From contig CAJINV010000006.1 in the NCBI GenBank assembly GCA_905178155.1, positions 892,557-956,556 on the forward strand: 64,000 nt of DNA, written 5' to 3'. Under the pieces are notes generated by a model. It searched no databases, had not been told where the DNA came from, and saw only the letters and a program-made list of their open reading frames with translations. The DNA comes from Amoebophrya sp. A120. Its lineage: Eukaryota > Protista > Dinoflagellata. The position numbers were made by a program, and so were the translations under genes. This document shows, piece after piece, positions 1 to 63,284 of this stretch (position 1 is the stretch's first letter; each line of letters opens with the position of its first letter).

Positions 1-122
1 AAATCGCATTACAAATTCGGTCAGCATGAAAAATGGAATTTGTCATGCTGATTTACCTTCACAGTTAGATTTGTAATGCATAAAACGCAATGGCAATTAG
101 TACGATACTTTTGCAATGCATA
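1..122. mobile_element. Introner F2 (right part only)
   Basis: Ends GATACTTTTGCAATGCATA. Confidence 0.85.
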
Positions 123-1986
123 CAGCACTGGGCGATGATGTTCAACGCGCGGACGGAGTTTTTTCATTGGATGGACCAACAGGACAAGCTGGTGAAAAAA
201 CGCAACGAAAAAACCGGGAAAAACGAAACCTGGAAAATCGACATGCAGACCCTGAAAGACGCGGTTCTGTACGGGACCAACACGAGTCAAGCAACGGATG
301 AGATGGAAATCACCGATGGCACAGAAGATGAGGAAACTTCGTTCGAAGTGGACGCGAAGAAGGTGCACAAGCGCAAGAAAACGGTGACCCACCACAAGAA
401 GAATCTCGTCGCGTTTGGAAAAAACCAGTACACCATGGCGATCAACGCTTTTGAGTTTCACGACTACAATCCGAAGGACGGGTATCTGTCAACGGACGAG
501 ATCAAACAGACGATGGAAGAATTCAAGCAGATCGAGCGGCGCGCGTTTGTATCCCATGTAAAAGCTGCTGCGTCGTAGAACAACCTGTAGTTCTTGGTAA
601 AGCCGCATGACAAATTCCATATCTCGTCACGCAGAGAAAATTTGTAATGCGATTACTACGTACTAGTTGTTTACCTATGATGCGCTTTTGCAATGTCGAT
701 AGCCTGCGTATGAGGATGACTTGGAGGAGATCATCGGGATGGATTTGCTTTCCAAAATGCCGTATCAAATGCAAACATGCCCGGGTCTGGAAGAGTGCAG
801 ATTTTTGTCATGCTGTTTCTGCATGACACAGAATGTCTGTCATGGAAGCCCTAGTAGCATCACAGATTTTTTCGAGAAGGTTCCGCATTGATGCCTGATC
901 CGCATGCCAAATCCCCCATTTTGGTGACAGGAAGCGGGCATCTTTTGCTGCCTCTGCATGACGAGAGATTTGTGTGTGTTGTGAAATGCGCATCACAAGT
1001 TCGCATCCTTCCAGACATCCAGGAATATTTGCACTGCATATCCCGCACTACCGGGACCTGAAGCTGGAGTTGCTCGGGAAGCGGAAGTGGAAGAAAAACC
1101 GGGAGGGGCAGAACAACAAACGACTGCGCAAGATCGCGAAGAAGGTCAAGCTATGCATTGCAAACATGTCTGGGTCTGGAACACAGCAAGTTGTCATGCT
1201 AAGTCTGCATCGTAGAAAAATCTGTGTTGCATGATTGCCAAAAGTTGTCCACTTTTGACCAAGTTGGAGCCGAGTTTCTCATCCAGGATAGGCGTGATAG
1301 ACATTTCGCAGGGTCTGTCATGCTTGTTCTTGCATTCCAGACCTCATGGGCCATGGAAAATCTGCATGACAAGTCCTGCCATGTTCCAGACCCAGAAATT
1401 TTTGTAGTGGATACAGGCAGCGCCTGCGCAAGGCGGTTTACGAGGACCCGCAGCTGATGGAGGGGCACGTGGTATCCCGTGTAAAAACGTCCCCACCTCC
1501 CCATAGTTGTCATGCAATTCTGCATGCCAAAAAAGTTTCTCATGCGGAGCCCTATGAGAAGCATTCTCTATTCGTGTTTTGGAATTTGTGATGCAAGAAT
1601 CAGCATGCTGCGCTAGATCTGTCATGCTTCTGAACTAGCTCAACAGGATTACACTACGAGAACAAGCTTGTCATGCCAAACAGCCAAGGCTGGTTGATTT
1701 GTCTAGCAAATTTCCCAGTGAGCCTCTGGTGTAGGGACGTTTTTAATCAGGATACGTGGCACATGTGGACCTGATCGACATCCGTACCGCAATCAGCCGC
1801 CGCAACTACCCGGGAATTTGGGTCTACCCGCGAGTATGGCGATGGAGAGAATCTTCGTTTTTGATGAGACCACACAGGAGTAGCTGCGTGAAGAGCATTT
1901 TATTTTTGGGAGAGCTTGGGCTTGTCAAGATTCTAGGTGGCCTCTGCATGATGTTGACAAGTTCTGAGCTGGTCTGTGCGTGTTGA
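123..1986 (+). CDS. 3' part of a multi-exon gene with an EF-hand-like Ca-binding motif (5' end outside window)
   Basis: Removing introners 550-701, 763-1040, 1152-1413, 1473-1754 (+5 nt each) gives one frame. Contains AFEFHDYNPKDGYLSTDEIKQ (SPARC-type EF-hand pattern). Last exon and stop are uncertain. Confidence 0.65.
550..701. mobile_element. Introner, divergent F2-like
   Basis: TAT..ATA; DR GTTTG/GCCTG. Confidence 0.75.
763..1040. mobile_element. Introner F1
   Basis: TIR; DR TGCCG/TCCCG. Confidence 0.9.
1152..1413. mobile_element. Introner F1
   Basis: TIR; DR CAAGC/CAGGC. Confidence 0.9.
1473..1754. mobile_element. Introner F3
   Basis: TIR; DR CGTGG. Confidence 0.9.
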
Positions 1987-3181
1987 CAAGTTCTGAGCTG
2001 GATTCTGGGCACGACTACTTCTGTAAATATAATTTCTCATACGAAGTTCTTTCTCTTGCATAGCAGTTTCCCAAGGACCACTACCATGCCGACCACTACA
2101 AGGGCCACAACGCTGGGCACGATGCGAATGACGAGCTGTAAGCAAAGGAGGGGAGTCAGTACATGGGCGTACTAGTGGGTGGTATGGTGATGCATCACAA
2201 GAAAATCGATCTGTATCTGCAATCACGCAGGTTTTCGCTCTGCAAATTTTTCGAAGTTAGTGTTTTTTTTTTTGAAGACATTGAATGCCGCATGTTGATC
2301 CTTCGGGTTTCAGATTGTCATGATGCGTGTAAAGCTAAGCTTAAACAATTAATGTCCAAGGCTTAGCGAAGAACGATGGAAGCTCCAGCAGAATATCATG
2401 GTTGTATACCCTGGTAGATTTCGAAGAAACGAGGAAGAAGAGAAAGATTCAGTTTACGACGTTCACATCGATTTGATTTTTGCAACTTTTTTTCAATTAC
2501 TGTCTCGTGCCCGTTGTATTTTTTGCGTTCATGTTTGTACTGAAGTAGCTTGTTTAACAAAAAAAATACCCCGATGTAGATCACATTACTTACGTTACTT
2601 ACTCTCTGGATCGAGTGAGTTGCCCCTTTTCGTCAAAAACCTCCGAGGTGTTTGAATGTCAAAGACTTCTCAAAAAATTTCAAAAACTGTCAAAGCTCAC
2701 AGCCAAAAAAATAAATCGAATTGTTGTGAAGAAAAGGACGAGCAGTTTTTGCTCTCAGCCTTCTATCTCATGGTGTAAAAAGTAGTTGGTTCATCGCGAG
2801 CACGCAGTAGCATATCTTTCGACATCCAACGAGAGAGCGAAGAACCGCTAGTGAGATAACTGGTTTTGCAAAAACAATGACAAACTGCATGTTGATGCAC
2901 CATGATTCTGCGTGCAAGGATTCAGTTGCATCCATGAGATTATTCACCGAGTGAGTGAAAAAACTACCACTTGTTCTATGATTTTCTTCTATCGGTGTTG
3001 TTCTACTTGGGTGCATTAATCATGTTGCTGCATTCAGATACACCCAGCACTAGCTCGGGCCACGAAGTAGATCTTCATTCCGCATGGCACATGATGTCCT
3101 CGACCACTGCCTCCAGCAGAGCTAGGTCGTCCTCTTCCACCCCTTCAATTTTTGACTTCGAGGACCACTTCGGCCACCGTG

Positions 3182-61850: not shown

Positions 61851-62218
61851 CAGCGGACGCCACGGCTCATATCTCGTTTGAAGAGAGTGAGTAGTTGCTT
61901 CGAGGTGTAGCATTCTTGCGAAATTGATAAACCCAATCTGGAAATTCGCACTCTTCTTCTGGCATAATGCTTTGGCTTTGTAGTAGTTTAGTGTGTCTAC
62001 GAACGACCTACGATGGGCGCAGGCGCCAAAAACTACATTACTAAAGCGTTCTTGCGAAGAACGAAGAAGAAACCCAAGCCATGGCCCGCCTGTCTTACCG
62101 CCCTCCTGTAAGTGCAAGAAGTGCCTGTCTTTCATCTTCCTCCCGAGACGAGACTGCGACCGTGAGCCCGCCGGGTGTGCTGGTGTTTGTTCACTGCAAC
62201 ACTGTTGTGTAGAACTAG

Positions 62219-63284
62219 ATGAGCCGGTATGCTGTGGAAGCACGTCCCCACCCCAGAGTTGTAGCGCAAATCTGCATGCCTTGATAAAATGTTTCTGATG
62301 CGGAGACACATGAGAGGCGTTTTCTACTTGTGATGCGAGATGATTTGTCATGCTCGAATCAGCATAACAAACTGGATCTGTGATGCCGCTGCACTAGCTA
62401 AACACGACTACACTGCGAGCCCAAATTTGTCATGCGCGACTGCCAAAGCTTAGGGATTTGTGTAGCAGATTTCCCATCTTGACTCTGCCTAGTGTGGGGA
62501 CGGTTTTCTTCACGATAGCCGGTTTCTAAATGAGGACCCTAACGTCCACGAGACCGAGACGGGCCGCTTCTTCATATCCACTGCAAATATGGCTAGGTCT
62601 GGAAGAATCAAACAATGCAAGATTTGTAATGCGAAATACCCATACCTCCGAACTCTGTCATGCGCGTTCTTGCGGAATAGCGCTGATTCTGTGGCATTCA
62701 AAAACGCAGTTTCTCATGCGGCCGACGCAAAGTCACAGGACCGTTAAAAGATCTGTCATGTTTGGCTGCGTAGTACTGTAGTCGTTTTGTCACTCCTCGA
62801 TCAGCTGCATGACAACTTATTTCCAGACACATATTTTCGCTGGATACTCGACGCAGCTGCGTAATGGCGTGGAGGAGATCCGCATGCCTTGGTACATTCG
62901 GCGGGACCGGAAATATCATGTGCAAAAGGATCGCACTCGTAGTAAAAATTGCGTTCATGCATTACAAATCTCTTTCCCAAGGTAAATCAGCATTACAAAT
63001 TCAATTTGTTGTAGTGATGCTGGGCTAATTTGTAATGCATTTTCATTCTTTTATACGAGTACGAGGATGCTTTTGCAATGCATAGGAAAACCGTGCGATT
63101 GATTCCGCTGCGGAAACACGCGACGGCCGTGTACCGGAGCATCAGCGAAACGCCCGCAAACGGTTCCAACGCGCGAACGCCGTACGAAACCTCACGACCC
63201 TCGTACGAGCAAATGCGGAGAAGATACGACTTGCCGCCACTGTATTTACAAGGCTGCAGCTTATGTCGCGTAGTGGGAGGGTGA
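62219..63284 (+). CDS. Small hypothetical protein (3' end uncertain, abuts GC-rich island)
   Basis: MSR|FLNEDPNVHETETGRFF|TQLRNGVEEIRMPWYIRRDRK|TVRLIPLRKH... in frame after removing 3 introners. Confidence 0.55.
62228..62517. mobile_element. Introner F3
   Basis: TIR; DR GCCGG. Confidence 0.85.
62575..62846. mobile_element. Introner F1
   Basis: TIR; DR CTTCA/CTCGA. Confidence 0.85.
62914..63084. mobile_element. Introner F2
   Basis: TIR; DR GGAAA. Confidence 0.9.

What the first reader, a model, noticed from the sequence alone, without database searches (positions are those of the whole stretch)
1..63084. One TAT...ATA plus 5-bp-repeat grammar makes about 90 transposon-like elements removable from genes without GT-AG
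Seen: about 90 elements, mostly 145-330 bp, from at least 8 families with different TIRs. They begin TAT (rarely TAC/TGT), end ATA and sit between 5-bp direct repeats. Deleting element plus exactly 5 nt restores conserved motifs: GPDH KHPNLFEP and MYVYEE, the nucleotidyltransferase GSSVNGFR|SKNSDLDL active site, SLD5 and RING. Most have no GT-AG. Known: inverted-repeat introners with short direct repeats have been reported in Amoebophrya, but as far as I know the excision machinery and mobilising enzyme are unresolved. Inference: one transposase system with a 5-bp staggered cut is coupled to a precise, structure- or motif-guided removal pathway that essential genes depend on.
Basis: partly seen in the sequence, partly recalled or inferred. 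Interest (0 to 1): 0.88.

Follow-up and report, generated by a model that had tools for sequence, protein, structure and literature searches.

The report
Fixed-offset splicing of Amoebophrya transposon introns
In this marine parasite, about 90 small transposon-like inserts in genes are already-described introns, and the transcript data fit one fixed cutting rule (one base before TAT, four bases after ATA) that ignores the usual GT-AG signals, which makes their unknown removal machinery testable.

Summary
Observation confirmed: 91 inverted-repeat elements (86 start TAT, 89 end ATA; 76 have a 5-bp direct repeat with at most one mismatch). Window proteins match Amoebophrya sp. A120 exactly, and the elements are its published introner elements, so the class is known. 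Spliced contigs from one sample remove element+5 nt at 39 of 91 elements; none of those examined contradicts this, and DNA contigs keep the elements. Added here: at all 16 junctions where repeat mismatches are informative, the only register that fits every one is intron = N+TAT...ATA+NNNN. The rule holds where the repeat has decayed and leaves a 2-nt exon exactly as predicted. The published description calls these borders variable or unknown. Intron positions +1, -2 and -1 look free (442 elements). The geometry resembles Euglena nonconventional introns, but +2/+3 match the host's GTA donors, and a 9-nt motif marks both intron classes. The catalyst is untested: U1-less spliceosome about 0.5, separate machine about 0.35. 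No transposase was found; an integrase-like (Ginger/IS3EU-type) enzyme is the likely mobiliser.

The parts
1..122 (.). Right part of an element cut by the window start (not among the 91)
   Evidence: Terminal match to the 145-bp family
550..1754 (+). 4 elements in gene 1: 550-701, 763-1040, 1152-1413, 1473-1754
   Evidence: ORF opens across all 4; no RNA laid
3912..4942 (+). 4 elements in gene 2: 3912-4080, 4150-4316, 4392-4606, 4679-4942
   Evidence: ORF opens across all 4; no RNA laid
7435..10978 (+). 9 elements in gene 3: 7435-8726 (nested 7466-8512), 8780-9076, 9128-9337, 9399-9675, 9750-10031, 10075-10635 (nested 10321-10602), 10657-10978
   Evidence: ORF across 7 outer elements; paralogue of gene 4 with no shared insertion site
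12121..19935 (+). 23 elements in gene 4: 12121-12399, 12457-12664, 12670-12924, 12965-13189, 13197-13462, 13504-13802, 13980-14305, 14318-14526, 14594-14844, 14903-15093, 15163-15447, 15492-15726, 15778-16003, 16040-16194, 16266-16550, 16621-16870, 16991-17311, 17363-17668, 17715-17859, 17885-18162, 18259-18520, 18563-18888, 18931-19935
   Evidence: 15 listed joints each skip element+5; 4 more from the letters-between table
13194..13195 (+). 2-nt exon (CA) between elements 12965-13189 and 13197-13462, whose repeats have 4 and 3 mismatches
   Evidence: Joint 12963 to 13467 with CA between, in 4 of 4 contig sets; matches all four predicted cuts
14310..14316 (+). 7-nt exon between elements 13980-14305 and 14318-14526
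   Evidence: Joint 13978 to 14525 with G between
12665..12669 (+). Single 5-bp repeat shared by tandem elements 12457-12664 and 12670-12924; predicted zero-length exon
   Evidence: Sequence and ORF; the joint was not among the rows shown
23259..26292 (+). Glycerol-3-phosphate dehydrogenase gene: elements 23323-23577, 23913-24177, 24219-24376, 25619-25768, 25966-26233; GT-AG introns 24714-24857, 25098-25246
   Evidence: Equals P0006; contig skips match
28145..32264 (+). Sld5-domain gene: elements 28936-29085, 29333-29596, 30209-30367, 30441-30591, 30796-30950, 31209-31460, 31817-32098; GT-AG introns 28535-28650, 30987-31136, 31565-31729
   Evidence: Equals P0121; skips of 540 and 1339 nt match prediction
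33520..37450 (+). Gene 6 (410 aa): elements 33775-34149, 34621-34873, 34919-35226, 35411-35559, 35620-35832, 36380-36638, 36961-37114, 37173-37317; GT-AG introns 34232-34400, 35868-36241, 36701-36903 (ends chosen by eye)
   Evidence: Observed skip 2642 = predicted 2642
39977..49441 (+). Nucleotidyltransferase-like gene: elements 39977-40125, 40266-40415, 40581-40733, 40768-40987, 41464-41783, 42475-42703, 42757-45660 (145-bp family split by a 2.75-kb insert), 45731-45966, 47021-47276, 48156-48315; plus 49284-49441 in a following exon
   Evidence: ORF of about 1600 codons across 10 elements; PF22600 below curated cutoff; no spliced contig seen
49588..51663 (.). 2 elements outside modelled ORFs: 49588-49851, 51352-51663
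51998..55377 (+). 8 elements in gene 9: 51998-52272, 52309-52594, 52941-53085, 53150-53388, 53768-54071, 54644-54793, 54861-55140, 55233-55377
   Evidence: 567-codon ORF; no RNA laid
56587..59616 (+). 7 elements in the RING gene: 56587-56856, 56893-57037, 57484-57708, 58395-58680, 58750-58904, 58999-59252, 59359-59616
   Evidence: 525-codon ORF; RING hits below curated cutoff; no RNA laid
62228..63084 (+). 3 elements in gene 10: 62228-62517, 62575-62846, 62914-63084
   Evidence: ORF opens across them; no RNA laid

Best explanation
These are Amoebophrya A120 introner elements that are removed from RNA as element plus 5 nt, with cuts that fit one register (one base before TAT, four bases after ATA), likely catalysed by the host's U1-less spliceosome using the paired element ends as a ruler. 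Shown: length rule, register, independence from repeat matching, both orientations, and no detectable constraint on intron positions +1, -2, -1. Inferred: a cut-and-paste, integrase-like DDE transposase (Ginger or IS3EU/GingerRoot type) made the 5-bp target duplications; because the 1+4 overhangs total 5, removal restores the target codons exactly, so any exon insertion is harmless; the terminal inverted repeats pair in the pre-mRNA and a factor reading TAT-N7-AAA replaces U1 and AG recognition; U+2 and A+3 are read as in the host's GTA donors.
For: 15 of 15 joints listed (37 found, 22 not shown) skip element+5 in four contig sets of one sample. Contig arithmetic adds 20 elements and the letters-between table 4, for 39 of 91. 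Keeping 4 nt of the upstream repeat fits 16 of 16 informative junctions; the other five registers fit 3, 6, 7, 9 and 8; chance under a random register about 1e-6. 86 of 86 short elements fold with 8 or more end-to-end pairs. For the spliceosome: 8 of 8 GT-AG introns start GTA, so this register puts the element's TA at +2/+3; +2 T is invariant in 444 of 444 while its mirror base varies in 6; the motif TTGT[ACG]ATGC is equally dense in elements (175/21384 nt) and GT-AG introns (10/1470) but not exons (1/17369); A120 keeps U2, U4, U5, U6 and most proteins with U1 undetected; Fritillaria is a precedent. For the mobiliser: TA..TA termini define IS3EU/GingerRoot; A120 fam38 is listed as Ginger, 5-bp TSD, TA/TA; paralogues share 0 of 7 sites.
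Against: G+1 (156 of 442), AG (33 of 442) and +1/-1 pairing (chi-square p 0.10) look like background, with no drift toward GT or AG; a spliceosome normally reads these bases (established knowledge). No branch motif was identified, and the -7 A varies in 3 of 444. Four of the 6 mirror-base changes still allow G-U pairing, so the +2 asymmetry is weak. G-U does not clearly exceed A-C in the stems (290:246, p 0.06), so selection on the RNA hairpin is not shown. The shared motif has no strand bias in the second assembly (15:25), so it may act on DNA or be a relic. All spliced contigs come from one sample, show only the majority form, and their RNA status is the tool's guess. IS3EU/GingerRoot duplicate 6 bp, not 5; no transposase was found.
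Confidence: 0.5

Rival explanations
1. Same register, but a separate non-spliceosomal machine (hairpin- or motif-guided endonuclease plus ligase) removes the elements, as proposed for Euglena nonconventional introns.
For: Positions +1, -2, -1 are free; all 86 folded elements pair end to end; 2-nt and predicted 0-nt exons; Euglena uses fixed offsets from an inverted motif, N3CDG..CHGN5-6|R, and its introns leave as circles.
Against: The register aligns TA with the host's GTA donors and a motif is shared with GT-AG introns; terminal pairs tolerate C-A mismatch (TAC 8 versus GTA 1); no such enzyme is known in A120 from the papers read.
Confidence: 0.35
2. The junctions are reverse-transcriptase template switches across a hairpin between direct repeats (a known cDNA artefact, recalled), and real transcripts keep the elements.
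For: Stable hairpins flanked by short repeats are the setting for this artefact; all RNA evidence is assembled contigs, presumably from cDNA.
Against: Cuts stay at the same offsets where the repeat has 3-4 mismatches (12965, 13197, 16621); GPDH and Sld5 are only encoded after removal; the spliced form dominates (depth 188 versus 10 for a contig retaining 13980-14305).
Confidence: 0.03
3. The elements are excised from DNA (like ciliate internal eliminated sequences) before transcription.
For: Transposon-like ends with TA; joined forms in other runs were not given and the DNA run's joint table was swamped by repeats.
Against: DNA contigs run through element ends at depth 41-46, like unique sequence at 42-56; the contigs lacking elements also lack GT-AG introns; one contig retains an element.
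Confidence: 0.03
4. The length is fixed by the repeat but the cut slides within it, as the published 'variable' borders imply; the single register is a small-sample or alignment effect.
For: Only 4 of 16 informative junctions force one register, and two of those rest on where contig pieces end; published annotations show mixed ends.
Against: 16 of 16 fit one register, p about 1e-6; 28 of 37 mismatched repeats would change the protein in some other register; mixed annotated ends are expected when aligners slide within repeats.
Confidence: 0.09

Closest known systems
Amoebophrya A120 introner elements (Farhat et al. 2021, PMC7789003)
   Same: Same organism by 100% protein identity; inverted repeats starting TAT, 7 variable bases, then A's; direct repeats 3-5 nt with a 5-bp example; RNA-seq-supported non-canonical introns.
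   Different: [quoted passage not shown] Its figures could not be seen and may show the same peak.
Euglena nonconventional introns (PMC12501133, PMC6221363)
   Same: No conserved terminal bases, ends paired by inverted repeats, fixed offsets from an inverted motif, slidable repeats hiding the code, MITE origin proposed, coexistence with GT-AG introns.
   Different: Motif CDG/CHG at offsets 3 and 5-6 with a purine after the 3' cut, versus TAT/ATA at 1 and 4 with no such purine rule seen; unrelated lineage; circles shown there, untested here.
Fritillaria borealis non-canonical introns (PMC13326754; review PMC11282704)
   Same: TIR/TSD-derived non-GT-AG introns removed by a modified U2 spliceosome.
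   Different: Biased ends (AG-AC/AG-AT), U1 kept, duplicated U2AF; here terminal bases are free and U1 is undetected.
IS3EU/GingerRoot and Ginger transposons (PMC10045372, PMC6839031)
   Same: TA..TA termini (IS3EU/GingerRoot), TIRs, integrase-like DDE enzyme; A120 fam38 listed as Ginger with 5-bp TSD and TA/TA termini.
   Different: 6-bp TSD in IS3EU/GingerRoot, TG..CA ends in Ginger; no transposase found here.

Membership tests
Amoebophrya A120 introner elements | Located in A120 genes | tested here: met
   Two exons 100% identical to proteins labelled Amoebophrya sp. A120
Amoebophrya A120 introner elements | Inverted repeats starting TAT, 7 variable bases, then 3 or more A | tested here: met
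   TAT 86 of 91; A at element positions 11-14 in 74, 78, 83, 69 of 91
Amoebophrya A120 introner elements | 3-5 nt direct repeats at borders; repeated families | tested here: met
   5-bp repeats; 10 clusters, best pair 92% identical
Amoebophrya A120 introner elements | Removed from transcripts without GT-AG | tested here: met
   39 of 91 with spliced contigs
U2-type spliceosomal introns | GT/GC donor and AG acceptor | tested here: not met
   2 of 91 GT-AG at the observed register; 9 of 442 overall
U2-type spliceosomal introns | U+2 and A+3 at the donor | tested here: met
   444 of 444 and 441 of 444, though detection favoured TAT
U2-type spliceosomal introns | Branch point and lariat intermediate | not testable with these tools
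   No raw reads of this organism laid usefully (7 and 24 reads); no branch motif identified
Euglena-type nonconventional introns | N3CDG..CHGN5-6|R signature | tested here: not met
   Signature here is N1TAT..ATAN4
Euglena-type nonconventional introns | Ends paired, cuts at fixed offsets | tested here: met
   Folding predicted; register
Euglena-type nonconventional introns | Excised as full-length circles | not testable with these tools
   Needs RNase R or circle sequencing
IS3EU/GingerRoot | TA..TA termini with TIRs | tested here: met
IS3EU/GingerRoot | 6-bp target duplication | tested here: not met
   5 bp here
IS3EU/GingerRoot or Ginger | Integrase-like DDE transposase in autonomous copies | tested here: inconclusive
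   No Pfam hit in 18 ORFs from inserts and GC-rich blocks of the window or 12 ORFs from 4 long elements; no whole genome held

The most novel reading that the evidence does not exclude
Amoebophrya A120 has a second splicing machine, lariat-free and convergent with Euglena's, that reads transposon ends (TAT..ATA) as a 1+4 ruler matched to a 5-bp transposase cut, so any exon insertion is erased from mRNA, and a helically spaced motif shared with GT-AG introns marks intron DNA for both systems.
Probability: 0.3. Interest if true: 0.9.

Novelty: new variant of a known kind. Interest (0 to 1): 0.64.

Why it matters
More than 60% of A120 introns are non-canonical and their borders and mechanism are reported as unresolved. 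A single register turns dozens of apparent splice dinucleotides into one code, corrects intron annotation, predicts where to look for branch points or circle junctions, and explains how one gene can carry 23 insertions. If a spliceosome does it, it works without reading G+1 or AG; if not, it is a second independent origin of Euglena-like splicing.

Tried and rejected
No whole genome is held, so no genome-wide search for transposase or snRNAs. The first lay was swamped by the repeat-rich DNA run; raw RNA runs X9 and X10 laid only 7 and 24 partial reads and were not used. Little or no contig cover of the nucleotidyltransferase gene in X3 is not read as evidence. Branch adenosine at -7: invariant in the window but varies in 3 of 444; not supported. 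Selection for GT, AG or a +1/-1 pair: none seen. G-U over A-C excess as a sign of RNA-stem selection: not significant. Sense-strand bias of the shared motif: 8:2 in window GT-AG introns, 15:25 in the second assembly; dropped. My first left end for one element (31182) was wrong and was corrected to 31209 from P0121 and the contig length. One check printed 144 against 293 because its filter missed the second intron; 144+149 gives 293. Rfam: no match in the window. Two terminal motifs: no match in viral contigs. Earlier findings: nothing. Roy et al. 2023 is not held. Structure and complex prediction were not relevant and not run.
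Full report
Observation. A scan assuming no terminal motif finds 57 inverted-repeat pairs with exact 5-bp flanking repeats against 3, 0 and 3 in shuffles, 40 of them TAT..ATA. Curation gives 91 elements covering 25,644 of 64,000 bases including nested inserts. Repeats are exact in 51, one mismatch in 25, two to four in 15. 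Ten clusters have two or more members, the best pair is 92% identical, and the two largest use both orientations equally. 87 of 89 outer elements lie in modelled ORFs, all on the + strand.

Organism and prior work. Two exons are 100% identical to proteins labelled Amoebophrya sp. A120, and my models reproduce both proteins exactly. Farhat et al. [quoted passage not shown] Gozashti et al. 2025 (PMC12130899; passages, and 41 of 58 A120 rows of supplement file 8; files 13-14 not searched) list mixed splice ends and varied repeat lengths, and class fam38 as Ginger with 5-bp TSD and TA/TA termini. The elements are therefore known.

RNA evidence. Contig sets X3-X6 are one sample and only guessed to be RNA, but they lack the GT-AG introns and barely cover the intergenic block at 20471-22471 (depth 0 to 0.84), while DNA run X1 has contigs through element ends at depth 41-46. 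All 15 joints listed (of 37) skip element+5, including a 1005-bp element. Contig coordinates give skips of 260, 433, 428, 540, 1339 and 2642 nt that equal the predictions.

Register. Mismatches between the two repeat copies show which copy each base comes from. Keeping four upstream bases fits 16 of 16 informative junctions; other registers fit 3 to 9; the chance under a random register is about 1e-6. Four junctions force it, two from a joint table and two from contig piece ends. At 12965-13462 two elements with decayed repeats leave exactly the predicted two letters, CA. The intron is therefore N+TAT...ATA+NNNN, and repeat matching is not needed. Precision matters: 28 of 37 mismatched repeats would change the protein in some other register. 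I found no statement of this register in five literature searches; Roy et al. 2023 was not held, and Farhat's Figs 3 and S19-S25 may show it.

Second assembly. Its unbiased scan gives 282 TAT..ATA of 356 pairs with 5-bp repeats. Of 404 elements found with a TAT/ATA-biased scan, 356 were oriented with a codon model that called 86 of 89 window elements + and none -, 45 were unassigned, 3 were at edges and one false call was dropped. Pooled: G+1 156, AG 33 and GT-AG 9 of 442, like flanking composition, with no +1/-1 covariation. The +2 T never varies in 444 while its mirror varies six times; TAC starts outnumber GTA ends 8 to 1; repeat positions 4-7 pair poorly (35-57%) between well-paired 1-3 and 8-14; G-U versus A-C is 290:246. 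No RNA exists for these loci.

Shared motif. TTGT[ACG]ATGC in either orientation occurs 175 times in 21,384 nt of elements, 10 in 1,470 nt of eight GT-AG introns, once in 17,369 nt of exons and twice in 19,395 nt between genes; it sits about 40 nt from each end with spacings near 16, 32 and 48 nt. It also appears, by eye, in GT-AG introns of the second assembly without strand bias. Its role is unexplained.

Mechanism. Insertion (inferred): a DDE transposase with a 5-bp staggered cut; TA..TA termini point to the integrase-like IS3EU/GingerRoot or Ginger groups (PMC10045372 and PMC6839031, passages), though those duplicate 6 bp or end TG..CA. Paralogous genes 3 and 4 (74 of 125 residues identical) share none of their 7 and 7 sites, so insertion followed duplication. 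No transposase was found. Removal (shown: offsets; inferred: catalyst): overhangs of 1 and 4 sum to 5 and restore the target. For a U1-less spliceosome: the register puts TA at +2/+3 as in 8 of 8 host GTA donors, the motif is shared, and Fritillaria is a precedent (PMC13326754: abstract, section 30, passages; PMC11282704: passages). For a separate machine: free terminal bases, predicted end-to-end stems in 86 of 86, tiny exons, and the Euglena code of fixed offsets (PMC12501133: part 1 of 6 and passages; PMC6221363: passages). I put these at 0.5 and 0.35. Template switching (recalled) and DNA excision are unlikely for the reasons listed under rivals. A 2024 review (PMC11453091, passages) repeats Farhat's description.

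Verdict. Real, and a member of a published class; it works like Euglena nonconventional introns but fails their signature. The addition is a fixed splice code, resting on 16 junctions from one sample's contigs, which makes the open mechanism directly testable. Interest 0.64.

Noticed in passing
window, all introns: Motif TTGT[ACG]ATGC marks both element and GT-AG introns but not exons, with spacings near multiples of 16 nt.
   Followed up: partly
window 11950-19955 and 7200-11087: Neighbouring cysteine-rich paralogues; gene 4 carries 23 elements in under 480 codons and has contig depth up to 258; no shared insertion sites. Function not examined.
   Followed up: partly
window 42870-45620: 2.75-kb T-rich repetitive insert inside a 145-bp-family element, giving a predicted 2909-nt intron; no Pfam hit.
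   Followed up: partly
window 7466-8512, 10321-10602, 18978-19737: Nested insertions inside elements; the first two have their own 5-bp repeats, the third is flanked by an exact 45-bp direct repeat.
   Followed up: partly
window 5530-6790, 20600-22100, 60300-61800, 63300-64000: GC-rich intergenic blocks without elements or Pfam hits; possibly other repeats.
   Followed up: partly
window 13949-14310: Low-depth contigs (10 and 5.7) retain element 13980-14305, a possible splicing intermediate.
   Followed up: no
element positions 4-7 at both ends: A 4-nt spacer after TAT differs between the two ends of most elements and recurs across families.
   Followed up: partly
window GT-AG introns: All 8 start GTA, 7 of 8 end CAG, and most lack a pyrimidine tract, with A-rich 3' ends.
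   Followed up: no
window 33844-33990 and L022 5650-5800: The same short insert appears inside elements of two different families.
   Followed up: no
L006 505-1608, L022 5528-6342, L061 1561-2313, L062 2085-3440: Long TAT..ATA elements with exact 5-bp repeats; ORFs have no Pfam match.
   Followed up: yes
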